Shown: in pieces, positions 7,853 through 46,529 of the stretch | Layout of the letters: every line of letters starts with the position of its first letter | How positions within the stretch are numbered: position 1 is the stretch's first letter | Origin: Candidatus Aminicenantes bacterium UBA1061 | GTDB taxonomy: Bacteria; Acidobacteriota; Aminicenantia; Aminicenantales; Saccharicenantaceae | NCBI GenBank assembly: GCA_002316315.1 | Contig: DCDG01000022.1 | Coordinates: 51 to 64,050, forward strand | Reading direction: 5' to 3' | DNA: 64,000 bases | Notes under the pieces: model-generated | The model's database searches: none | The model's input: the letters and a program-made list of their open reading frames with translations, nothing else | Told to the model about the DNA's origin: nothing | Position numbers and translations under genes: made by a program

Positions 7853-7860
7853 GGCAGGTT

Positions 7861-8964: not shown

Positions 8965-8976
8965 TTTCTCCTTTTT

Positions 8977-11573: not shown

Positions 11574-11686
11574 TTGTATATATACAACAATTTTTAGTGA
11601 TGTCAATAGTTTTTTTCATATTTTTATACTTTTATATACTTTTATTTGTATTTTTTTTATAAAAAGGCACTATAAGTGGTGTCGAA

Positions 11687-12298: not shown

Positions 12299-12324
12299 TT
12301 AAAACTCCAGCTTGATGGCTCGTC

Positions 12325-13695: not shown

Positions 13696-13700
13696 AATTT

Positions 13701-15458: not shown

Positions 15459-15459
15459 G

Positions 15460-32643: not shown

Positions 32644-32801
32644 TTCAGGTCTCCTTTCTCAACTGATTCGCCAGCGGAAACGGACGATGCTCTGCCGTCT
32701 TCCACTGCTTCGAATTTCGTCCTTTCAATTCGCATTTAGAATTTTTAAGTCAATTGAAATTCAAATCATTTAAAAATTTATTCCCGCCTGTCTCAGTTTC
32801 A

Positions 32802-33560: not shown

Positions 33561-34893
33561 TGGGGGGAAGCTCCACGCCCAGCGGGCAAACATCAGAGCA
33601 TTCGCCGCAGTCAGTGCATTTTTCCGCCGTATAAGTGAATTTCCCGTCAACCAGGCTAAGAGCATCGAAGGCACAGACACTGACACAGGCCCCGCAATCA
33701 ACACAGGTTGGCTTCTCCAGTTTCAACTCTTTGCCGCTTGTTCTTTTTTTGAGCTGTTTTAATGCCCGCTCTTCCTGGAAGAGCTCAACCGGCGAGGTCA
33801 GAATAAAGCTGCCCGCCATTATTCTTTCCTTCAGTAGCTGGCTTATTTCCCGCGCCATGGGCAGACTGGAAAGAGGCGAGGTTTTAACTTTTTTCCCGTT
33901 GAGTTCCAGCCAGCCCTCCCTCAGCCAGGCATAATTTGTGGCAGCAATTATCGGTCTTTCCGGCTGGCCGTAATCTTCAATAATCGTCTCGATTTCTTCA
34001 TTACTTCTGGAAACAAAATAAGCCACTTCCTCATTTAAAACAGGAATGGGAACGCCGATGCCAACAAAAAGAGTAACCCCGTAGTTTTTAAAGTAGGCTG
34101 CGCGCAAATAGCGGGAGTTCATGCGGCGAGCATCACCGATAACAGCCAGCGTTCTGGCCGGACCAACTGGCAAACCGTATTGATTGACCCTGACGTCGTT
34201 TCGAAACTGGGTGCCGGGCCAGACGACATAGCCGGTTCCACCGCCCAGAAAAATTCTGGTACCCAGTCCGATGGTCATCATCTGCGGATCTTTGAGCAAA
34301 GGGCTAAGTTCGCCCGAAGTGGAGTAAGTCACGTTGCCAAAATGAGGTAGCAGCTTCCCCATATAGGTGTATTTAGTCCGGTCAGAGCTGTTAGTAGCGG
34401 CCGCATAATTCTGGTAGGCATTTCTTGGATTAAAAAGGAAAAAATCATTGATCATATCCTTATTTATATAGCCCTCAAATTCTTTCCGGGGATAACAGTC
34501 TGTGCCTTTGGCGCTGGCTTTAAGATATAAATCCTGGCCTTCGATCAAAGCCTCGATAATATGTGCCCCACCAAAACTTTTATCAGCTCTGGACTCTTCC
34601 GTCGCACCGAGAAAGCCATCAACCGCGGCCAGCCCGCCATAGACTTCGACACCGGCGAGCTCAATTTTTTCCATCCTCATGGGAGGGGTGGTGTGCCCGA
34701 AGTTAATCACTGCTCCGCTCGAACACATGGGAGCAAAGGTGCCAGTCGTGACGACATCAACCTGCTCGGCAATCTTTTCGGGGCTCGCCTCTCTGGCCAG
34801 CTTCACCACTTCCTCCGCCGTGAGCACCACCGCTTCGCCCCGCTTGATTTTCTCATTGATTTCATCCACCGTTTTCATGTTTTTCTCCTTCAA
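33553..34893 (-). CDS. COG1900 (DUF39) homocysteine-biosynthesis protein fused to a 2x[4Fe-4S] ferredoxin domain
   Basis: KTVDEINEKIKRGEAVVLTAEEV and VDVVTTGTFAPMCSSGAVINFGH are typical of the MA1821/MJ0100-type family. C-terminus: CVDCGACVSVCAFDAL...CTDCGECSDVCPLGV. Confidence 0.75.
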   Translation of the reverse strand: MKEKNMKTVDEINEKIKRGEAVVLTAEEVVKLAREASPEKIAEQVDVVTTGTFAPMCSSGAVINFGHTTPPMRMEKIELAGVEVYGGLAAVDGFLGATEESRADKSFGGAHIIEALIEGQDLYLKASAKGTDCYPRKEFEGYINKDMINDFFLFNPRNAYQNYAAATNSSDRTKYTYMGKLLPHFGNVTYSTSGELSPLLKDPQMMTIGLGTRIFLGGGTGYVVWPGTQFRNDVRVNQYGLPVGPARTLAVIGDARRMNSRYLRAAYFKNYGVTLFVGIGVPIPVLNEEVAYFVSRSNEEIETIIEDYGQPERPIIAATNYAWLREGWLELNGKKVKTSPLSSLPMAREISQLLKERIMAGSFILTSPVELFQEERALKQLKKRTSGKELKLEKPTCVDCGACVSVCAFDALSLVDGKFTYTAEKCTDCGECSDVCPLGVELPPNE

Positions 34894-36220
34894 AAAATTC
34901 TCGATGAATGGCCTGTAAGGCCCGGTTTCTGTCTTTTAAACTTACCAGGAAATAAATCGTCACCTGAGATGCGCCGGCCGAGATCATTTCCACATTGATA
35001 CCATGCCTGGAAACAGCAGAAAAGATCCGGGCGGCCACCCCTGGTTTCTGAAGAACTCCCTCCCCGACCGCCGCTATGAGCGAGATATCGGTGCGGTAAA
35101 AAACATTTTCCACTTCGGCAATTTTCATTTTCGGCGTAATTTCCTGACAGCGTCTGACATCCTGGCTCGAGATCAGAATATTGATGCTTGTCTGTGAGGT
35201 CACCACGGATTTAATATTAATACCCTCGCGGCCGTAGGTCGAGGCAATCTGTCCGAGGAGTCCCGGCACCCGGCCGACATTTGACCCCTTAAAGCGGATA
35301 ACAGCCAGATCATCAGTAAATGACAGGCTCTTCACCACCGTCTCCGCTACCGCCCCGTTAGAGGAGATAATCGTATCGGGCCGGTCAATAGCGGTAAAGG
35401 AACCCAGGTTGAAGATATAAAGGGGAATATCTTTCTGGCGCACCGGATCGACAGCTGTTGGATGGAGGATTCTGGCGCCAAAGTAAGATAACTCAGCCGC
35501 CTCATCGTAGTTGAGCTTTTTAACGGGCTTAACAGTTCTGACCCGCTTCGGATCACAGGTCATAAAACCGGAAACATCCTTGTAAAGATCAACTCTTTCG
35601 GCCTCCAGGCAGTAGCCGATGGAAGTGGCTGAATAGTCGCTTCCGCCGCGGCCCAGAAGGTTCATCTGGCCGCCAGAAAGGCCATAAAACCCTGGCACCA
35701 CATAATTTTTATCGGCTTTAAAAAATTTTTTTAGATTCCCTGCCGACACTTCCAGTTCAACCGTCGCCTCTTTAAATCGCCCATCAGTGGTCAAACCAAA
35801 CTGCTCGGGTAGAGCTTCCTCACAGTCAAAGCCATGCTGGTTAAAATACTGGGTTAAAAGCAAAGAGGAACATCTTTCCCCGTGGCTTAGCACCCGATCA
35901 TAGACAAAATCCGGGACCTGACCGATGAGTCTGACCCCCTGCAATAAATCTTTTATCTCGTAGACGCGGGCCTTTAGCTCTGGATTTCTGGCCTCCAGAA
36001 AGCCCTGGTAAATGGAGTTAAGGCTCACCAGAAAGCCATTAACATCGAGATTTCTGATATTATCCAGAGCCACCATCAATCTATCGGTCACGCCCGAAAC
36101 AGCCGAGACGACGACGACCAGAGGCTGTTCGTACATTTTGACCACACTCAAAATTTTCGACAGATCATCCTTATTCTTGAGGCTCGAGCCGCCAAATTTA
36201 ACAACGATTATTTTTTTCAT
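34862..36220 (-). CDS. lysC: Aspartate kinase (monofunctional, with C-terminal ACT domains)
   Basis: MKKIIVVKFGGSSLKN, GRGGSDYSAT, and C-terminal ACT-like repeats. Confidence 0.9.
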   Translation of the reverse strand: MKKIIVVKFGGSSLKNKDDLSKILSVVKMYEQPLVVVVSAVSGVTDRLMVALDNIRNLDVNGFLVSLNSIYQGFLEARNPELKARVYEIKDLLQGVRLIGQVPDFVYDRVLSHGERCSSLLLTQYFNQHGFDCEEALPEQFGLTTDGRFKEATVELEVSAGNLKKFFKADKNYVVPGFYGLSGGQMNLLGRGGSDYSATSIGYCLEAERVDLYKDVSGFMTCDPKRVRTVKPVKKLNYDEAAELSYFGARILHPTAVDPVRQKDIPLYIFNLGSFTAIDRPDTIISSNGAVAETVVKSLSFTDDLAVIRFKGSNVGRVPGLLGQIASTYGREGINIKSVVTSQTSINILISSQDVRRCQEITPKMKIAEVENVFYRTDISLIAAVGEGVLQKPGVAARIFSAVSRHGINVEMISAGASQVTIYFLVSLKDRNRALQAIHREFFEGEKHENGG

Positions 36221-36390
36221 TTTGTTTTAATTGTCCTTTAGCCTAATTAATCTGATCTCCACTTAGCCCTGGAGCCGTCCGACCGGAAATGGTCATGGCC
36301 AGCTCCTGGCGAATCTTTAGATCATAATTTTTGCCCCGAACTTCAGACCTTGATTGGCTGGCGGGTCTTGCTCTGGATTTTTTCCCTATA

Positions 36391-36422
36391 TAAAAAAAGG
36401 GCGTTCTCAACTGAGAACGCCC
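36391..36422 (-). terminator. Rho-independent terminator (minus strand)
   Basis: The minus strand reads GGGCGTTCTC-AGTT-GAGAACGCCC followed by TTTTTTT. The stem is 36399-36422 and the U-tract corresponds to 36392-36398. 10-bp GC-rich perfect stem. Confidence 0.75.
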
Positions 36423-36770
36423 TTCGCTGTTTCCAGGGTAGACTTCACACCGCTGGCCAACCTCTCGGGGCGTAAGGACACATTATCATCACGTTTCTCC
36501 ACATGTCGAAGGCCAATGAAGCCAAGACGATCTCAATTTCTATTCCTCTGTTCATCACTCTTTTATCTTCCATCATTTTTGCTTTCTTATGCTAACAAAG
36601 TCAACAAAACTTTTCAAGACAGCCAGGTCAAGTTTTATTCGAGATCAGTCAGGACAAACATGTCCATTCGCTTTTTGGTCTTTCTGTCTTTCATATGTTT
36701 TTATCTTTTACGCCAGCAGTAAGCAGCCCGGCACGATAAATAAATCATAAATTTCTTTCTCCGCCGGTCA

Positions 36771-37436
36771 TCAGAGATTCAGGATAGCCCCAGAAGGCAG
36801 GGGCTTGAAATCATAAATGGGAAGCGGTTCAGAAGAAATTAACTTCAAAGAGGGCGACTCAAAAGACCACAAAGCATAATACTCAGGATGAGAAAAGTAA
36901 TGACAAAGTGCATATATATTTTGTTTATCAGCCAGGCCGATATTCATGGCTTGCACTCCTCTGGAATGTTTAATTATCGTTTCTTTCAACCGGCCAAGTG
37001 CTTCCTCCGGCGGCTCACTTTTCAAATAACTTTGCAGCATATTCCAGATTTTCTGGGAACCAATCTCTCCTCTTACATGAAAAGGAAGACAAATGCCCTT
37101 AATAAACCCGTTAAAGACAAAAGAGTAAGACTCTGAACAAAAAGGCTGATTGTAGTCAAGGCAGTTTCTTTGTTCAGGAAAAGATGAACTTCGAGCATGA
37201 AAAAGAAAAAATCTGCCGGCGGGAAGAGATTTAAACGTAGCTTTCTCCTCCCACACAGGTTTTGTTGATTTTTTAACTATCCAGTTACCATCATCAGCAA
37301 GATAGGCTAAGCCCCAGCCATCACCCTGCCAGTCACCTTCGAGACTCCTGCTTTCCCTGCACATTTCGGAAAAGGTGAGAGCCAGCTCTACTGGCTGGAA
37401 ATCAAAGTTTGATTTTACCATTAAGAATCTGCACAT
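36771..37436 (-). CDS. Stand-alone class II glutamine amidotransferase-fold (Ntn) amidohydrolase, YafJ/EgtC-like
   Basis: N-terminal MCR (nucleophile Cys2), QGDGWGLAY, LFHARSSS and FVFNGFI motifs of the GATase-2 fold. No synthase domain. The start overlaps the lysJ stop by 1 nt (TAATG). Confidence 0.7.
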   Translation of the reverse strand: MCRFLMVKSNFDFQPVELALTFSEMCRESRSLEGDWQGDGWGLAYLADDGNWIVKKSTKPVWEEKATFKSLPAGRFFLFHARSSSFPEQRNCLDYNQPFCSESYSFVFNGFIKGICLPFHVRGEIGSQKIWNMLQSYLKSEPPEEALGRLKETIIKHSRGVQAMNIGLADKQNIYALCHYFSHPEYYALWSFESPSLKLISSEPLPIYDFKPLPSGAILNL

Positions 37437-38617
37437 TATTTCAGGCTCTTAATAACCTCTTCCAGCTTTTCGACACATTCATCTATCTGAGTTTTCTCTA
37501 CAATATAAGGGGGTAAAAAGCGGACAACACTGCTCCCTGCAGGCACAGCCAGTATTTTTCTCTTTTGAAGATCTTTAATAATAGAATCCCTTCTCTCCTT
37601 GAATTCCATACCGATCATCAAACCTTTGCCCCTGACTTCAACTATCAAGTTTGATTTAATTTTCCTTAATCTGCCTGAAAAATAATCTCCGATTTCTTTT
37701 ACATGCAGGAAAAGAGCATCATTTAGTAATTCCAGCGTGGCCAGCAGGCCAGCACAGGCCAGAGGATTACCACCGAAAGTAGAAGTGTGGATTGATCTTG
37801 GTATTTTCTCTGCAATTTCTCTTGAAACCAGTGTTGCTCCGAAAGGCAGCCCACCGGCCAGGCCCTTTCCCAGGCAGAGAATATCCATCTCCTCTATCTC
37901 TTCATCCGAAGCCAAAAATGAACCTGTCCGACCAGCTCCAGCCTGAATCTCATCCAGGATGAGCAACACCCCCCTTTGCTGACAAATTCTTCTGACTTCT
38001 CTCAGGTAACCTTCAGCTGGAACGTTAATCCCACCTTCACCCTGTATCGGTTCAAGGAGAAAAGCAGCTACATTATTATCGGCTGCTTCTTCCAGAGAAT
38101 CGAGGTCGTTATAGGGTATAAATTTAAAATCCCATAATAATGGCTCAAAAGGCATCCGGTATTTTGGCTGGTAAGTAGCGGACAAAGCCCCCAGGGTCTT
38201 ACCATGAAATCCCCCACCGCAAGAAAGGAATTTCTTACGGCCGGTGGCTAAAACAGCAAACTTAAGAGCAGCTTCAATCGCCTCCGCCCCTGAACTGGAA
38301 AATTGAACTCTACTTAATCCATGACCACATCTTGAAACCAGCTCTTGAGCAGCCAGAGCCCTGAGATCATTATTAAAACTGCCATGTAGAGTCATCAACT
38401 CAGGCAATTCAGCCGCTATTTTCTGAGTTAGATAAAGATGGTTATAGCCGAAGATGTTAACACCATAATTACTCATTAGATCAAGATACTTTTCTCCGGA
38501 TTCATCAATCAAATAGCAGCCTTCACCCCGGACAAAAGTAAGGCCTCGGTTGATATATGAATCTACCAGATATCTTCTTTGCAATATTTCAAATTTTCTT
38601 CCCTGTTCAATCAGCAT
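37436..38617 (-). CDS. lysJ: Class III aminotransferase, LysJ/ArgD type ([LysW]-aminoadipate semialdehyde / acetylornithine aminotransferase)
   Basis: GGGFHGKTLGALS and LILDEIQAGAGRTG. 393 aa. LysW-operon context. Confidence 0.8.
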   Translation of the reverse strand: MLIEQGRKFEILQRRYLVDSYINRGLTFVRGEGCYLIDESGEKYLDLMSNYGVNIFGYNHLYLTQKIAAELPELMTLHGSFNNDLRALAAQELVSRCGHGLSRVQFSSSGAEAIEAALKFAVLATGRKKFLSCGGGFHGKTLGALSATYQPKYRMPFEPLLWDFKFIPYNDLDSLEEAADNNVAAFLLEPIQGEGGINVPAEGYLREVRRICQQRGVLLILDEIQAGAGRTGSFLASDEEIEEMDILCLGKGLAGGLPFGATLVSREIAEKIPRSIHTSTFGGNPLACAGLLATLELLNDALFLHVKEIGDYFSGRLRKIKSNLIVEVRGKGLMIGMEFKERRDSIIKDLQKRKILAVPAGSSVVRFLPPYIVEKTQIDECVEKLEEVIKSLK

Positions 38618-38648
38618 AGCTTTTTTCCTTTAACGCTATTTATTTCCC

Positions 38649-39449
38649 TTAGCTTATTACTGTCCCTTTTCCTTCCAGAGCATTTAAGATGGGATTTTCT
38701 ATTCGGCCATCCGCCCAGTAAATAACATCCACCCCACCCTCCATAGCTCTTTTGGCCCCAAGTATTTTCTTTTTCATCCTGCCTCTGGCAAAAGCTAAAT
38801 AGTCTTCAATTTTTTCCTTCTCCACTCTGGGAACAAGTGTACTTTCATCATCTGGATTCTCCAGCAGCCCTGGATTTTCAAACAGGACAACCAGCTTTCT
38901 AATTTTTAGCTTCTCGGCCATAATCGCTATAGCCCAGTCATTATCAGTATTAACAATTTCCTTTTCAAAACTTATAGCCGGCGAACAGATGACCGGAAGA
39001 TAATTGTTTTCTACGAGAAGATTGATTAATTCTGTATTAATTTCTTCTACCCTGCCAGTTAGATTATCTTTAAGGAGGATCACTCTGTCACCTTCCCTGG
39101 CCATTATTTCTTTTTTAGCTTTAGCCTGCCAGAGCCCGCCATCTACTCCTGACAGGCCAACTGCCCTGACACCTTCCTTCTGGAGTCTGGCCACAACCTT
39201 TTTGTTGACCAGACCGGCATAAGCCATTAAAAAGACCTCAAGCAGTTGCTGGTCAGTATAGACGCTGGTTATGCCTGAGGGAGAGACAACAGTTTTAATC
39301 GGAATAGACAGCCTGCTGGCCAGGTTATCTCGATAATAGCTGGCTCCGTGAACCAGAACCACTTTTTCCCTGGAAATTAAATAAGAAATGTCCCGGGCAA
39401 TTCCATCCCAGTTAATGTCTCTCCCGCCGCCGGCTTTAATTAAAAGCAT
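38649..39449 (-). CDS. lysZ: Amino-acid kinase family, LysZ/ArgB type ([LysW]-aminoadipate kinase)
   Basis: MLLIKAGGG...VVLVHGAS. 266 aa, AAK fold. Context. Confidence 0.8.
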   Translation of the reverse strand: MLLIKAGGGRDINWDGIARDISYLISREKVVLVHGASYYRDNLASRLSIPIKTVVSPSGITSVYTDQQLLEVFLMAYAGLVNKKVVARLQKEGVRAVGLSGVDGGLWQAKAKKEIMAREGDRVILLKDNLTGRVEEINTELINLLVENNYLPVICSPAISFEKEIVNTDNDWAIAIMAEKLKIRKLVVLFENPGLLENPDDESTLVPRVEKEKIEDYLAFARGRMKKKILGAKRAMEGGVDVIYWADGRIENPILNALEGKGTVIS

Positions 39450-39451
39450 TT

Positions 39452-40474
39452 TTAATCCTGTCCATATTTTTCCATGAAAGTCATAACGTCTTCCTCGGTC
39501 GTTTTCCCGGAGACCAGACTCTTAATGATTAAATTGCGCCTGGCACCAATGACCGCAGGTGGAATCGGCTCATATTTTTGTGGACCAAAGTTTATCAGGG
39601 CATTGAGGTGTATCCCGGCTTTATGGGCAAAACCGTTGTCAAGATTAGTCATCAGGTTCATCGGTACTTCCATCTGGCAAATTCTGGCTACATAATTTTC
39701 AGCTGCGGTCAGAACTTTTAAATTGTATCTGGAAGTCAAGGCCGGATTGATCTTATAAAGATTGACCAGAAGACTGCTCAAAGGAGTTATACCGGTTCTC
39801 TCCCCAATACCGAGCAAAGAAGTATCAACCCAGTTAGCCCCGGCCCTTAAAGCTGAAATAGCATTGCTGATGGAATGTCCGAGGTCATTGTGAAAGTGGA
39901 CTTCGAGATCAGTCTTAAATCGGGAGCGGATTTCACTTATTTTTTCATAGACTTCCCAGGGCAAGGCCGTGCCCAGCGTGTCAGGCAGGCCGATTCTCTC
40001 TACATTTAAAGAGCCAGCCAGCTCATAAATCTCAAGGATTAGCTCAAACGGCTGATGGAATAAATCCTCAGCACTTACCCTCGTTTCAACTTTATGTTTC
40101 TTGGCCAGAAGAATATTATTTTCAAGATTCTTCAGGTAGTCTTGAGGTGTCAAATTAAGGGCAGCAATTCTTTCCGGATCAGCCGTGCAAAGGATATTCA
40201 ATCCATCAACCTGGCATTCTAAGGATTTTTCTATATCCTTCCGATTATTTCTAATATGAGACAGAATCTTCGTCTGGGAATTCCCCTTGAGGTTGACCAG
40301 CTTTCTCACCATTTCAGCCACCTCTTCTTTTACCGGATTACTGACTTCAATGTAATCAACTCCGATGGCCATTAAATAACTGAAGATCTCGAGATGTTCC
40401 TCCAGGCGAAAACTGGCTCTGGAAAATTGGAGACCTTCCCTTAGGGTGGAATCAATTATTCCTTTGAAATTCAT
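39452..40474 (-). CDS. Homocitrate synthase / 2-isopropylmalate synthase-family (HMGL-like) enzyme, catalytic domain only
   Basis: IIDSTLREGLQ and the metal ligands HFHNDLGHSISN. 340 aa, with no LeuA-type regulatory domain. Confidence 0.75.
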   Translation of the reverse strand: MNFKGIIDSTLREGLQFSRASFRLEEHLEIFSYLMAIGVDYIEVSNPVKEEVAEMVRKLVNLKGNSQTKILSHIRNNRKDIEKSLECQVDGLNILCTADPERIAALNLTPQDYLKNLENNILLAKKHKVETRVSAEDLFHQPFELILEIYELAGSLNVERIGLPDTLGTALPWEVYEKISEIRSRFKTDLEVHFHNDLGHSISNAISALRAGANWVDTSLLGIGERTGITPLSSLLVNLYKINPALTSRYNLKVLTAAENYVARICQMEVPMNLMTNLDNGFAHKAGIHLNALINFGPQKYEPIPPAVIGARRNLIIKSLVSGKTTEEDVMTFMEKYGQD

Positions 40475-40496
40475 TTCAATCTCCCTGTCATTATTT

Positions 40497-41552
40497 TTAG
40501 ACCGGATGAAGTCCGGTAAATTCCAGGCTGGTTTCCTCTGGAAAGCCAGACATCAGATTAAGGCACTGGACAGCATTGCCGGCCGCGCCCTTGACTAAAT
40601 TATCAATTGCTCCGATGATGACCAGCCTGGAAGTCCTGCTTTCGAGTTCAAAACCCAGATCACAAAAATTTGTCCCCTGTAAGATTTTAGGTTCAGGATA
40701 ACGATATAATCCCCGGTTCATTTTAATTATCCGGACAAAAGGTTCATTTCCGTATTCTTTCTTTAGAATCCCTCGGATTTCTTTTTCACTAATTTCCTTA
40801 TCAAGAAAGGTGTGAATGGTGACCAGAATTCCTCTGACCATTTCCACCGCCGTAGCTGAAATACCAACGGCTATATCACCTGAAAAAGGTCTGAGCGCCT
40901 GCTCGATCTCAGCCTGGTGGCGGTGATTGGTTGGTTTATAAGAACGGATGGCCCCTGCTCTTTCCGGATGATGGCTGGCCCAGGAAGCCTTACTCCCGGC
41001 CTGAGAACTGCTCATTTTAGCATCAATAATGATGGGATGGTTTTTAATGATGTTGTTTTTTATAAAAGGATAGAGACAGAGAATGGAAACTGCCGCTTCA
41101 CAGCCTGGTCCGGCTACATAACGCGCAGATTTTATTTCCTGGCGGTAAATCTCTGGCAGGCCATAAACGAAAGTGGGAAGTAAATCCGGCCTCGTATGTT
41201 CTGTACCATACCAGAGCTGCCACTCAGCTGCGTCCTTGAGCCTGAAGTCAGCCCCGAGATCAATAATTTTTTCCGACAGGCCGAGCCATTTTTCCATGCC
41301 AGGCATTGATTCACCATTAGGCAGGGCTAAGAAAATTAAATCGCAAGGTTTAACTTCATCCGGACTCAAAAATTTTAAATCTGTTATTCCCCTCAAGTTA
41401 GGGTGGAGAAGAGAAACCTCAAGATGGGCAAATTTCCGGCTGGTAACCTGGTTGATTCTTACTTGAGGATGTCTGAGGAGAAGACGCAGCAACTCACCTC
41501 CGACATATCCAGAGCCGCCGACAATCGTTACTTCCAACAGATCCTTTTTCAT
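40497..41552 (-). CDS. lysY: LysY/ArgC-type semialdehyde-forming reductase ([LysW]-aminoadipyl-phosphate reductase)
   Basis: VTIVGGSGYVGGELLRLL and the active-site region VAGPGCEAAVSIL. Confidence 0.85.
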   Translation of the reverse strand: MKKDLLEVTIVGGSGYVGGELLRLLLRHPQVRINQVTSRKFAHLEVSLLHPNLRGITDLKFLSPDEVKPCDLIFLALPNGESMPGMEKWLGLSEKIIDLGADFRLKDAAEWQLWYGTEHTRPDLLPTFVYGLPEIYRQEIKSARYVAGPGCEAAVSILCLYPFIKNNIIKNHPIIIDAKMSSSQAGSKASWASHHPERAGAIRSYKPTNHRHQAEIEQALRPFSGDIAVGISATAVEMVRGILVTIHTFLDKEISEKEIRGILKKEYGNEPFVRIIKMNRGLYRYPEPKILQGTNFCDLGFELESRTSRLVIIGAIDNLVKGAAGNAVQCLNLMSGFPEETSLEFTGLHPV

Positions 41553-41561
41553 GTTCCTGCC

Positions 41562-42416
41562 TCAGAAACGATTCTCCTTTAAATATCTCAAGCAATAATC
41601 AACAATCGCTGAGGAAATGCTGACTCCAGTTGGCTCTTCAGAATTTCTGAATTCCATGGTGTGATTGACTTCATTTACTTTGAATCCATCTTTAGTTTCA
41701 AATATATCGAGAGCCAATAATCCTTCGCCGACTGCCCGGGCGGCCAGCCTTGATACTTCTACCAGTTCATCGCTCAGCGGACAGTTCTCAGTCTTTGCTC
41801 CTCTGGCTGTATTGGTTATCCAGTGCTCCGATGTCCGGTAAACAGCACAAATAACTTCCTGACCGATGACAAAGGCTCTTATATCACGCCCATTTTTTTC
41901 TACATATTCCTGTAGATAAAGGGCTTTTTGCTGCGGGCTTCCCAGGACATCCTTATGCTCAAAAACCGCTTCCAGTGCATCCATGTCATTTACCTTGGCC
42001 AGCAGCCGGCCCCAGGACCCAAGAGGTGGTTTGATTACTACCGGAAAGCCGCCCAGATGATCAACCGCTTCGATAGCTTTCTCCAGATTAAAGGCCAGAG
42101 CAAATTTCGGAGTGGGAACACCTGCTTTTAATAGACACATAGAAGTTAAAAACTTGTCCTGACAGATAGTCGCCAACTTTAAACTGTTCAAGACAGGAAC
42201 TCCAAGTGATTCGAAAAATGAAATGGCATAATTGCCTTTAACCGTAGAAACCGACCTTCCCAGAGCCAGGTCAAAATCAACTTCAAAACGATCAGGATCT
42301 AATATTGTCTCCCTTAAATCGATAGGCTTGACCTCTATCCCTTTTCTCATTGCAGATTCGATAATAAGCTTTTCTTCTTTTCTGATGGTCGAATGCAACA
42401 GAGCCAGTCTCGTCAT
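41562..42416 (-). CDS. lysX: RimK-type ATP-grasp ligase LysX ([LysW]--2-aminoadipate/glutamate ligase)
   Basis: Collinear by eye with Thermus LysX as I remember it: GFPVVIKPPLGSWGRLLAKV, YLQEYVEKNGRDIRAFV, HWITNTARGAKTENCPL, NEVNHTMEFRNS. Confidence 0.88.
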   Translation of the reverse strand: MTRLALLHSTIRKEEKLIIESAMRKGIEVKPIDLRETILDPDRFEVDFDLALGRSVSTVKGNYAISFFESLGVPVLNSLKLATICQDKFLTSMCLLKAGVPTPKFALAFNLEKAIEAVDHLGGFPVVIKPPLGSWGRLLAKVNDMDALEAVFEHKDVLGSPQQKALYLQEYVEKNGRDIRAFVIGQEVICAVYRTSEHWITNTARGAKTENCPLSDELVEVSRLAARAVGEGLLALDIFETKDGFKVNEVNHTMEFRNSEEPTGVSISSAIVDYCLRYLKENRF

Positions 42417-42461
42417 CTTGTTAAATCCTTATTGTTTATCCTTTTATCCTTTGATTCCAGC

Positions 42462-42641
42462 TTACTGTCCCCAGTCCTCTTCAATGGCTGGAGCCTCCCT
42501 CAAAGAAGCCCGATGGTCATCAATGGCCTCAACCACCAAGACAGAATGACAATCAGGACAGCTAAGAATTTCTGAGACCAAAATGTCCTCTTTAAGACTG
42601 ACCTCGGCCTCACATATCGGGCAAGTTCCTTCCATGCTCAT
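42462..42641 (-). CDS. lysW: Amino-group carrier protein LysW (59 aa; below the ORF-track length cut-off)
   Basis: The minus strand reads ATGAGCATGGAAGGAACTTGCCCG...GAAGAGGACTGGGGACAGTAA, giving MSMEGTCPICEAEVSLKEDILVSEILSCPDCHSVLVVEAIDDHRASLREAPAIEEDWGQ*. It has a CPxC...CPDC zinc ribbon and an acidic EDWG tail. GGAGG lies 8 nt upstream, and the gene is 45 nt upstream of lysX. Confidence 0.85.
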   Translation of the reverse strand: MSMEGTCPICEAEVSLKEDILVSEILSCPDCHSVLVVEAIDDHRASLREAPAIEEDWGQ

Positions 42642-42677
42642 TGGCAGTTCCTCCTTAAGATCAATTTTTCGAAGGGC

Positions 42678-42706
42678 ATTATGAAGAGACGTCAGCAGTA
42701 AGTCAA
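42678..42706 (-). promoter_or_regulatory. Sigma70-like promoter of the lysW operon
   Basis: The minus strand reads TTGACT, a 17-nt spacer (tactgctgacgtctctt), then CATAAT, about 35 nt upstream of the lysW ATG. Confidence 0.5.
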
Positions 42707-42755
42707 ATATTTAAATAATTTTTACTTTTTTCTTATTTTATGTTAAATATTTAAC

Positions 42756-43424
42756 ATGATTACGATCTCAGAGGTCACTGAAAGTATCATCAAGAAATCC
42801 CCTTATTTAGAAGAGGCTCTTGCTCTTGGTATCATCAATCTGTCCGGTCTGGCCAGGGTGATCAAACCGGAAATAGAAAAGCAGTTGATGAAGACAGTTC
42901 AGGATGGGGCCATAATAATGGGACTAAAGCGTTTATCACAGAAAATCAAAGTGGCTAAAAAAGGGCAGAAAAGGCTTTTCCCCGAACCACCAGATCTGAT
43001 GGTCAGATCAAACCTTCTGGAAATAACCATTCCTAATTCAGACACCTTGTTGCTCAAGCAGAAAAGGCTACTCGACAAAATCAAGTCCATGAAGAATTAT
43101 TTTCTTACTTTTACGCAGGGGATTTACGAAACAACCATCATCGTCAGCAAGAATCTGGAAGATAGCCTGAACGAGATATTCAAGGATGAGAAGATAATTT
43201 CCAGGTTTGATAATCTGTCGTCAATTACGATCCAGTTGCCGCCAGGCTCCACCTCCATCCCCGGTATCTATAATTATATTTTGAGACCTCTTGCCTGGGA
43301 GGGCATCAACCTCATTGAAGTCGTTTCCACCTTCAATGAATTCACCATCATCCTGCAGGATAAAAACATCCATCAGGCTTTTTCTATTTTAAAGCGGCTA
43401 TTTGAGCCGGCTAAAAGAGGATGA
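42756..43424 (+). CDS. ACT-domain-containing protein (aspartokinase-regulatory-domain-like)
   Basis: 222 aa. The C-terminal GIYNYILRPLAWEGINLIEVVSTFNEFTIILQDKNIHQAFSILKRLF resembles the ACT fold of aspartokinases. Divergent from lysW. Confidence 0.55.
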   Translation: MITISEVTESIIKKSPYLEEALALGIINLSGLARVIKPEIEKQLMKTVQDGAIIMGLKRLSQKIKVAKKGQKRLFPEPPDLMVRSNLLEITIPNSDTLLLKQKRLLDKIKSMKNYFLTFTQGIYETTIIVSKNLEDSLNEIFKDEKIISRFDNLSSITIQLPPGSTSIPGIYNYILRPLAWEGINLIEVVSTFNEFTIILQDKNIHQAFSILKRLFEPAKRG

Positions 43425-43495
43425 GCCAGGGCCAGGAGCAGCCTCATACACTGCCCACAAGGAAATAACTATTGATCTTATTGAACCTTATTAAA

Positions 43496-44413
43496 TCACG
43501 GGGGGCACTTGGCACATAAAGACCTGAAGAGCCTGGCGCTTAAATAGCGCTCTCCTCTATCGGGCAATAAAGTTACAATCGTTCCGCTCTCCATATCTCT
43601 CGCCAGCCGCAATGCTCCGGCCACAGCTGCACCGCTGGACATGCCAACCAGCAATCCTTCTCTGGTTGCCAGCAGCCTGGTTATTTTAATAGCCTCATCA
43701 TCTTCAACAGTAATTTTTCTATCTAAGATTCCAGGATTATATATCTTGGGCACCATGGATTCTTCCAGATTTTTCAGTCCCTGAATAGCATGTCGCTTTC
43801 CGGGCTCAACACCAACTATTTTTACCCCCGGCTTTTTCTCCTTTAGATACTGGCCGACACCCATCAAAGTTCCTGTGCTCCCAATGCCAGCCACAAAAGC
43901 GTCAATTTCACCCCCGGTTTGTGAAAAAATTTCCGGTCCTGTAGTTTTGTAATGAGAAATGACATTATTTTCATTTTCAAATTGATTTGGCAGGTAATAT
44001 TTATCCGGTTCTTTCTCCAGAATCTCATAGGCTCTTTTTATGGCTCCATCTGTGCCTTCTTCACCTGGTGTCAGCAGCACCTCCGCTCCAAAAGCTTCCA
44101 GTATTTGCCGCCTCTCGGGTGTGACACAAGCTGGTATAACCAGCTTAACTTTGTATCCTTTTACCGCCCCGATCATGGCCAGGGCAATACCCATATTACC
44201 TGAGGTTGGCTCAAGAATAATTTTATCTCTGGTCAACTCCCCTGAAGCCTCGGCCTTCTTTATCATGTAATAAGCGGGCCTATCTTTGACTGAGCCACCT
44301 GGATTAAGCCCCTCCAGCTTGCCATAAATCTTTACTTTGGGGTTCTGATTTAAATGGGTTAATTCTACCAACGGTGTGTGGCCGATGGCAGCAAGCAAGT
44401 TATGATTATTCAT
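43496..44413 (-). CDS. cysM: Cysteine synthase (O-acetylserine/O-phosphoserine sulfhydrylase), CysM-like
   Basis: Start moved to MNNHNLLAAIGHTPLV (ATG 44413). LEGLNPGGSVKDR, TSGNMGIALA, GIGSTGTLMG, MSSGAAVAGAL. Closer by eye to E. coli CysM than to CysK. Confidence 0.8.
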   Translation of the reverse strand: MNNHNLLAAIGHTPLVELTHLNQNPKVKIYGKLEGLNPGGSVKDRPAYYMIKKAEASGELTRDKIILEPTSGNMGIALAMIGAVKGYKVKLVIPACVTPERRQILEAFGAEVLLTPGEEGTDGAIKRAYEILEKEPDKYYLPNQFENENNVISHYKTTGPEIFSQTGGEIDAFVAGIGSTGTLMGVGQYLKEKKPGVKIVGVEPGKRHAIQGLKNLEESMVPKIYNPGILDRKITVEDDEAIKITRLLATREGLLVGMSSGAAVAGALRLARDMESGTIVTLLPDRGERYLSARLFRSLCAKCPP

Positions 44414-44494
44414 TTTTATCCCTCTTTTATTCCTCTCTGTTTGCTGATAAAAATTCAAAAAACTAAGCTTTTAGCTCATATTATAGCTGCCGTG

Positions 44495-45283
44495 TCAACT
44501 CACCTGCTCGATGGCCTGGTTGGTTTCCTTAATAAAGTTTTGAACATTTTCCTTCCCACCTGAATTAAACAAATTAATCAAATGGCTGCCGACAACAGCC
44601 ATGTCTACTTTGCCAATCAGATTTGTTATCTGTTCAACCGAGGATATTCCAAAGCCCGCCGCCAGAGGGAGGTCGGTATAAGCTTTTACCCGGTCAATAA
44701 AATCGACACTTTTTATCTCCATTCCATTCCTGGCCCCGGTAACACCAACCCTGAGCGTAATATAAATAAAGCCTTCAGCTCTCTTTAGTATTTTCTTCAA
44801 CCTTGAAAGAGACAAACCTGCTGACAGGACCTGAATTCCGACAAGGTTACACTCTTTAAGCCAAAAATAATAATCATCATAACCTCTCTCATCAAAAGGC
44901 AGGTCAGGAATGATTAACCCGCTGACCCCGCAAGCAGCGCTTTCGGAAACAAATCGCTCCAAACCCAGGGTGTAAGCCAGATTGGCATAGGTCATAAAAA
45001 GAAGTGGAAGTTTAACCTCGTCTCTTATTTCCTCTATCATTTTGAGACAGAGCTTCGGCGTCAGGCCATTTTGAAGAGCTTTATGATTAGCTGCCATGAT
45101 AGTTGGTCCGTCAGCCAATGGATCCGTGAAAGGAATCTGCACCTCGATCATATCAGCCCCGGCTTCAGCCATGGCTAGTATCAAATTCTGGCTGGTTTCA
45201 AGATCTGGATAGCCAGCTACTACATGAGTCATAATCTTCAGCCTTTTTTTCTTGGCAAAAACTTCTTCAATTGATCCGTTCAC
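44495..45283 (-). CDS. trpA: Tryptophan synthase alpha chain
   Basis: MTHVVAGYPDLETS...ADMIEVQIPFTDPLADGPTI. Confidence 0.92.
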   Translation of the reverse strand: MNGSIEEVFAKKKRLKIMTHVVAGYPDLETSQNLILAMAEAGADMIEVQIPFTDPLADGPTIMAANHKALQNGLTPKLCLKMIEEIRDEVKLPLLFMTYANLAYTLGLERFVSESAACGVSGLIIPDLPFDERGYDDYYFWLKECNLVGIQVLSAGLSLSRLKKILKRAEGFIYITLRVGVTGARNGMEIKSVDFIDRVKAYTDLPLAAGFGISSVEQITNLIGKVDMAVVGSHLINLFNSGGKENVQNFIKETNQAIEQVS

Positions 45284-46529
45284 CGTTGGCCTCCTCTTTC
45301 AAAAATCTCAACCAGCCTTCACCATCAAGTTCCTTAGCTGCAACAAATAAATCCTTATCACCTCGGCCGGAGATATTAACCACCATTATTTGCCGCCCGG
45401 AAAATTCCACGGCGATTTTAAGGGCGTAAGCGACAGCATGAGCCGACTCAAGGGCTGGTATAATACCTTCGGTCTGGCAAAGCGTCTTAAAAGCGGTCAG
45501 GGCTTCCACATCTGTCACCTGGTCAAAGCAGATTCTCCCGGCATCATGAAGGTAAGCCAGCTCCGGTCCAAGACCGGCATAATCAAGGCCAGCACTGATT
45601 GAATGGGTCGGCTGCACCTGCCCCTCATCATCCAGGATAAAATAGGATTTGTAGCCCTGGACAATACCTTTTCTGGGATTTTCCCCCAGCCTTCGGGCAT
45701 TTTCTCCCTGGCCTGGGCCCAGGCCTCCAGCTTCAACCCCATAAAGTTTCACATTTTTATCTTCCAAAAAAGGATAGAAAAGCCCGATGGAGTTAGAACC
45801 ACCGCCAACGCAGGCCACCAGGACATCAGGCAGCCTGTTCTCATAAGCTCGCAGCTGGGCTTTAACTTCCCGGCCAATGACCGACTGAAAATCCCTAACC
45901 ATCAGTGGATAAGGAAAAGGTCCAACGGCTGAACCAAGCAAATAATGCGTATCCTCCAGATGTTCAATCCAGTATTTTAAGGCCGCATTGACCGCATCCT
46001 TAAGAGTTTTTGTGCCGTCTCTCACCGGAACTATCTCTGCTCCCATGGTTTTCATAAAAAAGACGTTGGGATACTGCCTTTTGATATCAACCTCGCCCAT
46101 GAATATCCGGCTCTTCAAGCCAAACCTCGCCGCCACCGCCGCCGTAGCCAGACCATGCTGTCCGGCTCCTGTCTCCGCTACCAGACAGGTCTTGCCCATT
46201 TTTCTGGCCAGCAAGGCCTGCCCGAGAGCATTATTTATTTTATGGGCACCCGTCTGACAGAGCGACTCAAGTTTTAGATAAATCTTACATCCTCTACCGA
46301 GCCTGGTGAGATTCTCAGCGAAATAGAGCGGCGTCGGACGGCCGGCATAGTTTTTTCTTAAATGTTCCAGCTCGTTTTGGAATTCCTGGCTTTCCCGGTA
46401 GTGAAAATAAGCCCCGGACAATTCTTCCAGAGCCGGGACGAGCATTTCAGGCACATATCTTCCGCCATAATCACCAAAATAGCGGTTTTCCCCTGCCGTC
46501 TTTGACCTCTTCTTTCTCTTTTGTTCCAT
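45267..46529 (-). CDS. trpB: Tryptophan synthase beta chain
   Basis: YFGDYGGRYVPE, QTGAHKINNALGQ (PLP lysine), GGGSNSIG. Confidence 0.95.
   Translation of the reverse strand: MEQKRKKRSKTAGENRYFGDYGGRYVPEMLVPALEELSGAYFHYRESQEFQNELEHLRKNYAGRPTPLYFAENLTRLGRGCKIYLKLESLCQTGAHKINNALGQALLARKMGKTCLVAETGAGQHGLATAAVAARFGLKSRIFMGEVDIKRQYPNVFFMKTMGAEIVPVRDGTKTLKDAVNAALKYWIEHLEDTHYLLGSAVGPFPYPLMVRDFQSVIGREVKAQLRAYENRLPDVLVACVGGGSNSIGLFYPFLEDKNVKLYGVEAGGLGPGQGENARRLGENPRKGIVQGYKSYFILDDEGQVQPTHSISAGLDYAGLGPELAYLHDAGRICFDQVTDVEALTAFKTLCQTEGIIPALESAHAVAYALKIAVEFSGRQIMVVNISGRGDKDLFVAAKELDGEGWLRFLKEEANGERIN

What the first reader, a model, noticed from the sequence alone, without database searches (positions are those of the whole stretch)
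36771..42641. LysW amino-group-carrier operon that lacks LysK and is closed by an EgtC/YafJ-type Ntn amidohydrolase
Seen in sequence: seven tightly packed minus-strand genes in the order lysW, lysX, lysY, HCS-like, lysZ, lysJ, GATase-2-fold gene. Gaps are 45, 9, 22, 2 and 31 nt, followed by a 1-nt TAATG stop/start overlap. A good promoter lies upstream (42678-42706). No M20 deacylase (LysK/ArgE type), homoaconitase or homoisocitrate dehydrogenase is in the window. Established knowledge: in the Thermus/Sulfolobus pathway the product is freed from the gamma-carboxyl of the LysW C-terminal Glu by the metallopeptidase LysK. Class II GATase-fold enzymes with an N-terminal Cys hydrolyse glutamine or gamma-glutamyl amides, for example EgtC in ergothioneine synthesis. 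Streptomyces uses LysW-like carriers to build non-proteinogenic amino acids (DADH / vazabitide). Inference: the translationally coupled MCR... protein could be a non-orthologous replacement of LysK, doing gamma-glutamyl amide hydrolysis to release the product. Alternatively, the operon may make something other than lysine or ornithine.
Basis: partly seen in the sequence, partly recalled or inferred. Interest (0 to 1): 0.7.

Follow-up and report, generated by a model that had tools for sequence, protein, structure and literature searches.

The report
New lysine-release enzyme in LysW operons
This operon builds lysine on a small carrier protein but lacks the usual enzyme that frees the finished lysine; it carries instead a conserved cysteine amidohydrolase that, judged from about 360 related loci, replaces that enzyme and also allows the carrier to end in glutamine instead of glutamate.

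Summary
Seven packed minus-strand genes (lysW, lysX, lysY, HCS, lysZ, lysJ, gene 7) sit at the stated coordinates with the stated gaps. The window holds no LysK, homoaconitase or HICDH.

Gene 7 is a 221-aa Cys2 Ntn hydrolase. Its model has pLDDT 95.5 and its best fold match is EgtC (TM 0.80). It fails the EgtC family model (22 of 218 bits).

- Gene 7 lies directly after lysJ in 74 of 77 evaluable loci.
- A diverged subfamily lies between lysY and lysZ in many other phyla.
- Gene 7 and LysK never co-occur: 107 gene-7 loci have no LysK, and 105 LysK loci have no gene 7.

New finding: the window's LysW ends in Gln (EEDWGQ), not the Glu that LysX needs.
- Gln termini occur in 25 of 87 gene-7-type LysW and 0 of 46 LysK-type LysW.
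- Of 119 Gln-ending LysW loci, 68 show gene 7 and none shows LysK.
- The terminus switched between Glu and Gln at least 17 times.

I conclude that gene 7 hydrolyses gamma-glutamyl amides at the LysW C-terminus. It primes LysW-Gln and releases lysine, the same logic as Pup and Dop. No biochemistry exists, and no publication was found.

The parts
42678..42706 (-). Promoter-like site TTGACT-17-CATAAT upstream of lysW
   Evidence: It matches 10 of 12 consensus positions and lies 37 nt upstream of the lysW ATG, which has an AAGGAGG ribosome-binding site. This is a consensus match only.
42462..42641 (-). lysW: amino-group carrier protein, 59 aa, a zinc ribbon with the C-terminal tail ...APAIEEDWGQ. 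It ends in Gln, not Glu.
   Evidence: PF21344 3.8e-11 and NF041070 3.7e-15. The DNA reads gag gac tgg gga cag taa.
41562..42416 (-). lysX: the ATP-grasp ligase that attaches 2-aminoadipate to the LysW C-terminal Glu gamma-carboxyl
   Evidence: TIGR02144 LysX_arch, 303 bits against a cut-off of 276, plus the RimK and LysX_preATP_grasp domains.
40497..41552 (-). lysY: [LysW]-aminoadipyl-phosphate reductase, a member of the ArgC family
   Evidence: TIGR01850, 380 bits against a cut-off of 234.
39452..40474 (-). Homocitrate-synthase-like gene: HMGL-like plus HCS_D2, 340 aa, short form
   Evidence: PF00682 1.1e-53 and PF22617 1.3e-08. TIGR02146 scores 260 bits, below its cut-off of 414.
38649..39449 (-). 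lysZ: [LysW]-aminoadipate kinase
   Evidence: NF010659, 284 bits against a cut-off of 223.
37436..38617 (-). lysJ: class III aminotransferase of the ArgD/LysJ family
   Evidence: PF00202 1.8e-100. NF042418 LysJ scores 341 bits, below its narrow equivalog cut-off.
36771..37436 (-). Gene 7: a 221-aa Cys2 N-terminal-nucleophile amidohydrolase with the class II GATase fold. Proposed function: LysW C-terminal gamma-glutamyl amidohydrolase that releases lysine and deamidates LysW-Gln.
   Evidence: AF2 model pLDDT 95.5. Foldseek top hit is EgtC, E 1e-11, TM 0.80. Synteny. Exclusion with LysK. Residues invariant across the family include C2, R82 and N109-G110.
42756..43424 (+). Divergently transcribed 222-aa protein: an N-terminal helical domain plus tandem ACT domains like the aspartate-kinase regulatory subunit. 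It is a conserved companion of gene-7-type operons. Its role is unknown; it may sense lysine.
   Evidence: It lies beside lysW in 57 of 107 gene-7-type loci, in none of the 54 other loci of the genome scans (25 LysK-type, 29 unresolved) and in none of 80 LysK loci from metagenomes.

Best explanation
This is a LysW (amino-group carrier protein) operon for lysine synthesis from 2-aminoadipate. The last enzyme, the M20 metallohydrolase LysK, has been replaced by an unrelated enzyme, gene 7.

Proposed mechanism (inferred throughout; no activity has been measured):
1. Gene 7 loses its initiator Met, which exposes Cys as the N-terminal nucleophile, as in class II glutamine amidotransferases and EgtC.
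2. The Cys attacks the gamma-carbonyl of the C-terminal residue of LysW.
3. On LysW-gamma-lysine this releases free lysine. It passes through a gamma-glutamyl thioester that water then resolves, and LysW-Glu is regenerated.
4. On newly made LysW that ends in Gln, as in this window, the same reaction releases ammonia. This turns the unligatable carboxamide into the Glu gamma-carboxylate that LysX needs.

One enzyme therefore both primes the carrier and unloads it. Dop does the same for PupQ/PupE in actinobacteria.

Shown here: gene content, fold, conserved catalytic residues, synteny, mutual exclusion with LysK, and the restriction of Gln-ending LysW to gene-7 systems. Inferred: both enzymatic activities and the specificity for the lysine adduct.
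For: (1) Fold and catalytic residues.
- The AF2 model has pLDDT 95.5.
- The best PDB matches are EgtC (E 1e-11, TM 0.80), then the glutaminase domains of GlmS and PurF.
- Profile against PDB sequences: 3MDN 1.4e-6, EgtC 1.6e-5.
- M1-C2-R3, H80-x-R82-S83 and F108-N109-G110 are invariant in 78 sequences of both subfamilies. In the GlmS alignment, R82 lines up with GlmS R73 and N109-G110 with the oxyanion pair N98-G99.

(2) Synteny.
- Of 80 loci seeded on gene 7, 74 of 77 evaluable have gene 7 directly after lysJ on the same strand.
- In a scan seeded on LysW alone, 26 of 80 loci carry a subfamily 27-34% identical to gene 7 between lysY and lysZ.

(3) Mutual exclusion with LysK.
- 25 of those 80 loci carry LysK (NF003367, 389 bits against a cut-off of 363), mostly right after lysJ. 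None of them has gene 7.
- None of the 107 gene-7 loci has LysK.
- 80 LysK loci from metagenomes have no gene 7.

(4) The LysW C-terminus.
- It is Gln in 25 of 87 gene-7-type LysW and 0 of 46 LysK-type LysW. Fisher p = 9e-6.
- Of 119 genome loci with LysW ending EEDWGQ-stop, 68 show gene 7 and 0 show LysK. All 27 loci in which at least 1 kb after lysJ is visible have gene 7.
- At least 17 Glu/Gln switches occur on a LysX+LysY tree. Sixteen are in loci shown to carry gene 7. The seventeenth is L114, a truncated contig that nests among them.

(5) The product is lysine.
- HCS, homoaconitase large and small subunits and HICDH lie inside related operons.
- A class I lysyl-tRNA synthetase gene follows gene 7 in 15 loci.

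(6) Chemical precedent.
- EgtC cleaves a gamma-glutamyl amide formed with an alpha-amino group (PDB titles; established knowledge).
- Dop both deamidates PupQ and removes Pup (PMC8599861).
Against: - No enzyme assay exists.
- I could not scan whole genomes, so an unlinked LysK or ArgE-type deacylase elsewhere in these genomes is not excluded.
- The gene-7 and LysK systems form separate clades on the LysX+LysY tree. The exclusion therefore reflects few independent replacement events, and the Fisher p-values overstate independence.
- Three gene-7 homologues lie outside any lys cluster: L012, L077 and L079. L077 lacks Cys2.
- An enzyme that accepts both NH3 and lysine as leaving groups must still reject LysW-gamma-aminoadipate, or it would undo the LysX reaction. 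Nothing here shows how it does so.
- The three sequence alignments (GlmS, 3MDN, EgtC) disagree on the register around G126. The argument about the lost Asp is therefore only suggestive.
Confidence: 0.75

Rival explanations
1. Gene 7 is only a maturation or repair enzyme for LysW. It deamidates LysW-Gln or removes mis-ligated adducts, while lysine is released by an unlinked M20 deacylase (LysK, ArgE or DapE-like) encoded elsewhere in the genome.
For: Gln-ending LysW is tied to gene 7. Whole genomes could not be searched for M20 enzymes. In Thermus, lysK is not in the main lys cluster (established knowledge).
Against: 62 of 87 gene-7-type LysW already end in Glu and need no priming, yet gene 7 is kept in those operons. 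Where LysK exists it usually lies beside lysJ, and it never occurs with gene 7. No LysK-type gene was detected in any of the 107 gene-7 loci (about 1.7 Mb) by tblastn with 17 LysK sequences, and no M20-like family appeared among the recurrent neighbour clusters I inspected.
Confidence: 0.1
2. The operon does not make lysine, or not only lysine. It makes ornithine or a non-proteinogenic amino acid on LysW, as in the Streptomyces AmCP clusters, and gene 7 is tailored to that product.
For: LysW systems in Sulfolobus and Thermococcus serve both lysine and ornithine, and Thermus LysZ and LysY are promiscuous (PMC12998189). The window itself lacks homoaconitase and HICDH.
Against: LysX and LysZ pass the lysine-pathway equivalog cut-offs. 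An HCS gene lies in the operon. Related operons include homoaconitase and HICDH and are followed by lysS. No secondary-metabolite genes are nearby; the neighbours are aromatic amino-acid, tryptophan, cysteine-synthase-like (PALP family), aspartate-kinase and homocysteine-synthesis genes.
Confidence: 0.08
3. Gene 7 is a generic free-glutamine glutaminase, or a gamma-glutamyl-compound hydrolase, that is co-located for nitrogen or glutamate supply (for example for LysJ) and does not act on LysW.
For: Databases call it 'class II glutamine amidotransferase', and the fold is that of a glutaminase domain.
Against: No synthase partner domain is present. This reading does not explain the exclusion with LysK or the restriction of Gln-ending LysW to gene-7 systems. 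The Asp that binds the free alpha-amino group of glutamine in class II enzymes has no conserved counterpart.
Confidence: 0.04

Closest known systems
LysK, the [LysW]-lysine hydrolase (M20 metallopeptidase, EC 3.5.1.130; NCBIfam NF003367) of Thermus, Sulfolobus and Thermococcus
   Same: The proposed reaction is the same: hydrolysis of the isopeptide between the LysW C-terminal Glu gamma-carboxyl and the alpha-amino group of lysine. The place in the operon is the same in many genomes, directly after lysJ.
   Different: The fold and chemistry are unrelated: a Cys N-terminal nucleophile in an alpha-beta-beta-alpha sandwich, against a di-metal M20 hydrolase. Gene 7 is proposed also to deamidate Gln-ending LysW. 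No LysK-type system shows a Gln terminus (0 of 46).
EgtC, the ergothioneine-pathway Ntn amidohydrolase (PDB 4ZFJ/4ZFK/4ZFL; NCBIfam TIGR03442)
   Same: It is the best structural match (TM 0.80). Both are stand-alone class II GATase-fold enzymes with an N-terminal Cys. EgtC also cleaves a gamma-glutamyl amide made with an alpha-amino group.
   Different: Sequence identity is 16-18%. Gene 7 scores 22 bits against the family cut-off of 219. It has no ergothioneine gene context. Its proposed substrate is the C-terminus of a protein, not a small gamma-glutamyl compound.
Pup and Dop in Actinobacteria
   Same: The logic is the same. The carrier or modifier is encoded with C-terminal Gln in some species and Glu in others. 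One enzyme (Dop) both deamidates the Gln form and cleaves the gamma-glutamyl isopeptide. A separate ATP-dependent ligase (PafA, here LysX) makes the bond (PMC8599861).
   Different: There is no homology. Dop and PafA have a glutamine-synthetase-like fold, whereas gene 7 is an Ntn hydrolase and LysX an ATP-grasp enzyme. Pup tags proteins for degradation; LysW protects a biosynthetic intermediate.
Canonical LysW/AmCP lysine operons (Thermus thermophilus, Sulfolobus, Thermococcus kodakarensis)
   Same: LysW, LysX, LysY, LysZ, LysJ and HCS are all present, in the usual order, with the conserved EDWG tail.
   Different: The release enzyme is replaced. The carrier may end in Gln. A conserved divergent ACT-domain protein accompanies about half of the gene-7-type operons.

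Membership tests
LysW (amino-group carrier protein) lysine pathway | LysW zinc-ribbon carrier with the acidic C-terminal tail ...EDWGE, whose last Glu carries the intermediate | tested here: inconclusive
   The zinc ribbon (PF21344, 3.8e-11) and the tail EEDWG are present, but the last residue is Gln. The narrow NCBIfam LysW models score below their cut-offs (55.7 of 75; 34.8 of 53.2).
LysW (amino-group carrier protein) lysine pathway | LysX ATP-grasp ligase and LysZ kinase that pass the curated equivalog models | tested here: met
   TIGR02144: 303 bits against 276. NF010659: 284 bits against 223.
LysW (amino-group carrier protein) lysine pathway | LysY reductase and LysJ aminotransferase | tested here: met
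   LysY passes the TIGR01850 argC model: 380 bits against 234. LysJ is met at family level only: Aminotran_3 at 1.8e-100, but it scores below every curated cut-off tested, including the argD subfamily model (369 of 410) and the organism-specific LysJ equivalogs.
LysW (amino-group carrier protein) lysine pathway | LysK M20 [LysW]-lysine hydrolase (NF003367) | tested here: not met
   None was found in the window or in any of the 107 gene-7-type loci. The rest of the genome could not be searched.
EgtC family (TIGR03442) | Score at or above the curated cut-off of the EgtC equivalog model | tested here: not met
   22.2 bits against 218.65 for gene 7, and 45.5 bits for the diverged subfamily.
EgtC family (TIGR03442) | Ergothioneine gene context (egtB, egtD) | tested here: not met
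   The neighbours in about 190 loci are lys genes. No recurrent neighbour cluster looks like egtB or egtD.
Class II glutamine amidotransferase / Ntn hydrolase fold | N-terminal Cys directly after the initiator Met | tested here: met
   M1-C2 is present in 78 of 78 full-length sequences of both subfamilies.
Class II glutamine amidotransferase / Ntn hydrolase fold | The fold, with the oxyanion Asn-Gly pair and the carboxylate-binding Arg | tested here: met
   Foldseek matches EgtC, GlmS and PurF with probability 1.00. R82 and N109-G110 are invariant and align to GlmS R73 and N98-G99.
Class II glutamine amidotransferase / Ntn hydrolase fold | A conserved Asp that binds the free alpha-amino group of glutamine (GlmS D123) | tested here: not met
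   No conserved acidic residue occurs at positions 112-127 or 129-132; position 128 is Gln or Glu (Q in 48, E in 30 of 78). The motif is G-x-I-G-[AS]-[QE]-K. The Asp aligns with invariant G126 (3MDN), with variable position 124 (GlmS) or with I130 (EgtC). The register is uncertain without a structural superposition.
Class II glutamine amidotransferase / Ntn hydrolase fold | A fused or partner synthase domain that receives the ammonia (a true amidotransferase) | tested here: not met
   The protein is a 221-aa single domain. No conserved partner other than the lys genes is present.
Pup-Dop type carrier priming and release | The carrier is polymorphic Gln/Glu at its C-terminus, and the Gln form occurs only where the hydrolase is present | tested here: met
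   25 of 87 against 0 of 46. Of 119 Gln loci, 68 have gene 7 and 0 have LysK.
Pup-Dop type carrier priming and release | One enzyme shown to catalyse both the deamidation and the isopeptide cleavage | not testable with these tools
   This needs biochemistry.

The most novel reading that the evidence does not exclude
A previously unrecognised enzyme family, annotated only as 'class II glutamine amidotransferase' or 'hypothetical protein', is the terminal enzyme of carrier-protein lysine biosynthesis in a large share of bacteria: Acidobacteriota/Aminicenantes, Ignavibacteria, Calditrichia, Gemmatimonadota, marine Gammaproteobacteria and CPR Microgenomates. It works as a dual-function LysW C-terminal gamma-glutamyl amidohydrolase. 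It activates Gln-ending pro-LysW and unloads lysine. This is a convergent reinvention, in primary metabolism, of the Pup/Dop prime-and-release logic.
Probability: 0.6. Interest if true: 0.85.

Novelty: new variant of a known kind. Interest (0 to 1): 0.78.

Why it matters
The LysW pathway is a textbook case of carrier-protein amino-acid synthesis, and LysK is taken to be its only release enzyme (for example PMC12998189, 2025).

In my LysW-seeded sample, operons with gene 7 were as frequent as operons with LysK (26 against 25 of 80). Metabolic reconstructions that require LysK will therefore call lysine synthesis incomplete in many phyla. The Caldithrix abyssi genome paper already suspected 'non-orthologous gene displacements' in lysine synthesis (PMC5317091).

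It also bears on CPR bacteria. Microgenomates carry complete aminoadipate-pathway operons of this type, which conflicts with the usual view that they lack amino-acid biosynthesis.

Mechanistically it would add a protein-C-terminus-specific member to the class II GATase fold. It would also give a second, independent example of a carrier that is encoded in an amide-blocked form and activated by its own release enzyme.

The claim is directly testable with two recombinant proteins and a mass spectrometer.

Tried and rejected
- Pfam gave no hit for gene 7, and NCBIfam gave only a sub-threshold EgtC match. I therefore relied on structure prediction.
- A single-protein scan of genome contigs found only one close relative. 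The alignment-based scan was needed.
Together with the 3MDN and EgtC alignments it gives three different registers around G126. I therefore do not claim a specific Asp-to-Gly replacement, only that there is no conserved acidic counterpart.
- I looked for a lysine riboswitch or other RNA in the 345-nt gap after gene 7 and across 33000-46000. Nothing reached an Rfam gathering score, and only chance-level hits appeared at E < 1.
- Literature searches combined LysW, LysK and AmCP with amidotransferase, Ntn, EgtC, deamidase and 'missing'. A check of the GapMind 2026 preprint also found no description of this enzyme. Subscription-only papers are not covered.
- I considered that Gln-ending LysW might be loaded on its alpha-carboxylate, in the manner of RimK. 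I rejected this as less parsimonious, because close relatives switch freely between Glu and Gln while the other enzymes stay the same.
- I considered an AF2 fusion model of gene 7 with LysW. I did not run it because the tool returns no coordinates or interface scores.

Full report
**1. The observation**

The gaps are 45, 9, 22, 2 and 31 nt, then a TAATG stop/start overlap.

Curated models confirm the assignments:
- LysW: zinc ribbon, PF21344.
- LysX: TIGR02144, 303 bits, above cut-off.
- LysY: ArgC family, 380 bits.
- LysZ: NF010659 [LysW]-aminoadipate kinase, 284 bits, above cut-off.
- LysJ: class III aminotransferase.
- HCS-like gene: an HMGL-like/HCS_D2 protein that stays below the strict HCS cut-off.

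The promoter-like site TTGACT-17-CATAAT at 42706-42678 and a strong ribosome-binding site precede lysW. The window holds no LysK-type M20 enzyme, homoaconitase or HICDH. The closest genome hit (88% identity for gene 7) is an Acidobacteriota MAG, JAQURD010000003.1.

**2. What gene 7 is**

Gene 7 has no Pfam hit and only a 22-bit match to the EgtC model, whose cut-off is 219 bits. With an alignment of 27 homologues, AlphaFold2 gives a confident model (pLDDT 95.5, pTM 0.91).

The best PDB matches are the ergothioneine Ntn hydrolase EgtC (E 1e-11, TM 0.80). The glutaminase domains of GlmS and PurF and two structural-genomics 'class II GATase' proteins follow. A sequence profile also reaches 3MDN and EgtC.

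Across 78 sequences of both subfamilies the invariant residues include M1-C2-R3, Q37, G40-W41-G42, H80, R82-S83, F108-N109-G110, G123, G126, K129, N165, Y186 and S202.
- C2 is the N-terminal nucleophile once the initiator Met is removed.
- R82 and N109-G110 align with GlmS R73 (substrate alpha-carboxylate) and N98-G99 (oxyanion hole).
- The Asp that binds the free alpha-amino group of glutamine in class II enzymes has no conserved counterpart. The three alignments place it opposite G126, variable position 124 or I130. This fits a substrate whose alpha-amino group is in a peptide bond, but the register is uncertain.

The family is moderate in size. A profile search of 1.84 billion representative proteins finds 130 at E <= 1e-30 and 1044 at E <= 1e-3. 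Databases call members 'class II glutamine amidotransferase', 'predicted glutamine amidotransferase' or 'hypothetical protein'.

**3. Synteny**

A scan of one genome per species with the gene-7 alignment gave 80 loci. They come from Aminicenantes and other Acidobacteriota, CPR Microgenomates (Roizman-, Gottesman-, Levy-, Davies-, Shapiro- and Pacebacteria), Dojkabacteria, a Woesearchaeote, Dehalococcoidia, Fischerbacteria and Thermoanaerobaculaceae.

Using tblastn with the window's proteins, gene 7 lies directly downstream of lysJ on the same strand in 74 loci. Three further loci start at gene 7 and cannot be judged. Three have no lys genes within 10 kb (L012, L077, L079), and the L077 copy has lost Cys2.

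In many CPR operons a 4-kb insert between lysY and lysZ encodes HCS, homoaconitase large and small subunits and HICDH. In 15 loci a class I lysyl-tRNA synthetase gene follows gene 7. The product of these operons is therefore lysine.

**4. Mutual exclusion with LysK**

To avoid selecting on gene 7, I scanned the same genome collection with a LysW alignment. The pattern was APx[VIE]EEDWG, with the last residue left free. The 80 loci fall into three groups:

| Group | Loci | Detail |
|---|---|---|
| Diverged gene-7 subfamily | 26 | 27-34% identity to gene 7, MCRLL..., same motifs; lies between lysY and lysZ. Found in Ignavibacteria/Melioribacter, Acidobacteria, Gemmatimonadales, Binatia, Calditrichaceae and others. 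|
| LysK | 25 | A bona fide LysK (NF003367, 389 bits against 363), mostly right after lysJ. Found in Anaerolineae and other Chloroflexota, Synergistales, Methylomirabilota and others. |
| Unresolved | 29 | The genes are dispersed or the contig ends. |

No locus has both enzymes. An LysK-seeded scan of metagenome contigs gave 80 more LysK loci, none with gene 7.

On a LysX+LysY tree the two types form separate clades. The replacement is therefore old and happened few times. The exclusion is real, but its statistical weight is less than the raw counts suggest.

**5. The Gln-ending carrier**

The window's LysW ends ...EEDWGQ-stop. In the known pathway the intermediate is attached to the side-chain carboxyl of the C-terminal Glu of LysW. 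That rests on established knowledge (Horie et al. 2009), and PMC12998189 describes aminoadipate attached to the C-terminal E53 of the Thermococcus LysW. A Gln carboxamide cannot be activated by the ATP-grasp ligase LysX.

| Set | LysW ending in Gln | Source |
|---|---|---|
| Gene-7-seeded loci | 15 of 61 | |
| LysW-seeded loci with gene 7 | 9 of 25 | |
| LysW-seeded loci with LysK | 0 of 25 | |
| LysK loci from metagenomes | 0 of 21 | |
| All gene-7-type (including the window) against all LysK-type | 25 of 87 against 0 of 46 (Fisher p = 9e-6) | |

For the sharper converse test I searched the genome collection for AP..EEDWGQ followed by a stop codon. Some of them are the same genomic places as loci in the earlier sets.
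- 68 show gene 7 inside the 8-kb piece returned.
- None shows LysK.
- 51 are cut before the informative position.
- All 27 in which at least 1 kb after lysJ is visible have gene 7.

These loci add real Gammaproteobacteria (Arenicellales and others), KSB1, Vicinamibacteria and more.

Parsimony on the LysX+LysY tree needs at least 17 Glu/Gln changes. Sixteen fall in loci that carry gene 7. The seventeenth is L114, a truncated contig nested among them. A terminal residue that is essential for loading can drift to its amide repeatedly only if a deamidase is always at hand. Glutamine-amide hydrolysis is the defining chemistry of gene 7's fold.

**6. Mechanism**

I therefore propose that gene 7 is a LysW C-terminal gamma-glutamyl amidohydrolase. 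Cys1 attacks the gamma-carbonyl of the last LysW residue. With lysine as the leaving group this is the LysK reaction. With ammonia as the leaving group it converts LysW-Gln to LysW-Glu.

The two roles support each other:
- The Gln data tie gene 7 to the LysW terminus.
- Most gene-7 operons have Glu-ending LysW and no LysK, so gene 7 must have a function beyond priming.

There are two precedents. EgtC cleaves a gamma-glutamyl amide formed with an alpha-amino group. Dop both deamidates PupQ and removes Pup from its targets (PMC8599861).

Open points:
- How the enzyme discriminates against LysW-gamma-aminoadipate.
- Whether an unlinked deacylase exists in these genomes.
- The complete absence of activity data.

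**7. Comparison with what is known, and novelty**

The system is a member of the LysW pathway for five of its six defining enzymes and fails on LysK. Gene 7 belongs to the class II GATase/Ntn fold but not to the EgtC family.

I found no paper that links LysW with such an enzyme. A 2025 study of the pathway still names LysK as the hydrolase. The Caldithrix abyssi genome paper lists a LysWXZYJ+Hcs locus and suspects 'non-orthologous gene displacements' in lysine synthesis.

I rate this as a new variant of a known kind: a non-orthologous displacement of the terminal enzyme, plus an amide-blocked carrier.

**8. A second companion gene**

The divergent gene at 42756-43424 encodes a well-conserved 222-aa protein (50-86% identity among homologues). 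Its model (pLDDT 89) has an N-terminal four-helix domain and tandem ACT domains. These match the regulatory subunit of aspartate kinase (Foldseek E 2e-8, TM 0.7 normalised to the target).

It sits beside lysW in 57 of 107 gene-7-type loci. It is absent from all 54 other loci of the genome scans and from all 80 LysK loci from metagenomes.

It may be a lysine sensor. It could act on LysZ, which belongs to the same kinase family as aspartate kinase, or on transcription. I did not test this.

Noticed in passing
window 42756-43424 (+): A divergent 222-aa protein with an N-terminal helical domain and tandem ACT domains like the aspartate-kinase regulatory subunit. It lies beside lysW in 57 of 107 gene-7-type loci and in no LysK-type locus. 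It may be a lysine-sensing regulator or a regulatory subunit for LysZ.
   Followed up: partly
L013, L018, L025, L027, L036, L042, L066, L074, L076 and six more loci, directly downstream of gene 7: A class I lysyl-tRNA synthetase fused to a C-terminal B3/B4 domain (767 aa) follows the lysine operon in 15 CPR loci.
   Followed up: partly
L014, L017, L024, L027, L041, L057, L061, L070 (about 4000-8000 in each locus): CPR Microgenomates operons contain a full aminoadipate pathway (HCS, homoaconitase large and small subunits, HICDH) inserted between lysY and lysZ. This is unexpected for a group usually described as lacking amino-acid biosynthesis.
   Followed up: partly
L077 9998-10657: A Patescibacteria genome keeps a gene-7 homologue that has lost the N-terminal Cys (MIVILRS...). 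It has no lys genes within 10 kb and sits next to a class II lysS. It is probably a relic of a lost operon.
   Followed up: partly
L106 8417-8812; L116, L120, L125 about 9995-10416: Chloroflexus-type loci carry two tandem lysW genes followed only by lysX and lysY. The remaining pathway genes are elsewhere, so the type of release enzyme is unknown there.
   Followed up: no
L114 (= L177) 2590-3417; L158 923-2597: Two lysX paralogues occur in one operon, possibly a LysX/ArgX pair for lysine and ornithine. L114 has a Gln-ending LysW, but the contig ends before lysJ.
   Followed up: no
L241 and L264: A Gln-ending LysW is followed only by lysX and then by unrelated glycosyltransferase and membrane genes. 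The pathway is either dispersed or a different carrier system. These are the only Gln loci with long downstream sequence in which gene 7 was not seen.
   Followed up: partly
window 36396-36770 (-): A 345-nt non-coding gap separates the gene-7 stop from a strong terminator (13-bp stem, 36425-36396). It contains promoter-like sites and lies ahead of the aspartate kinase gene (34862-36220). No Rfam family matches it, so it may be an uncharacterised leader.
   Followed up: partly
window 31621-36220 (-): Directly downstream lie aspartate kinase, a COG1900-type homocysteine-synthesis enzyme fused to a ferredoxin domain (33553-34893), and aspartate-semialdehyde dehydrogenase. Aspartate kinase here would serve threonine and methionine rather than lysine.
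   Followed up: partly
window 7861-11606 (-): A lysine-2,3-aminomutase-like radical SAM gene lies next to two D-Ala-D-Ala-ligase-like ATP-grasp genes. This could be a beta-lysine-related or EF-P-modification cluster.
   Followed up: no
L086 (Stygiobacter electus 09-Me, NZ_JARGDL010000002.1) 10001-16087: A cultured strain has the diverged gene-7 subfamily (WP_321534818.1, named 'class II glutamine amidotransferase') together with a Gln-ending LysW. It is a convenient organism for experiments.
   Followed up: partly
L004, L006, L013, L014 and other 'binchicken'/TPA MAG records: Several MAGs labelled 'uncultured Gammaproteobacteria' or 'Clostridia' carry operons nearly identical to those of Roizmanbacteria or Aminicenantes. 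Their taxonomic labels look unreliable.
   Followed up: no
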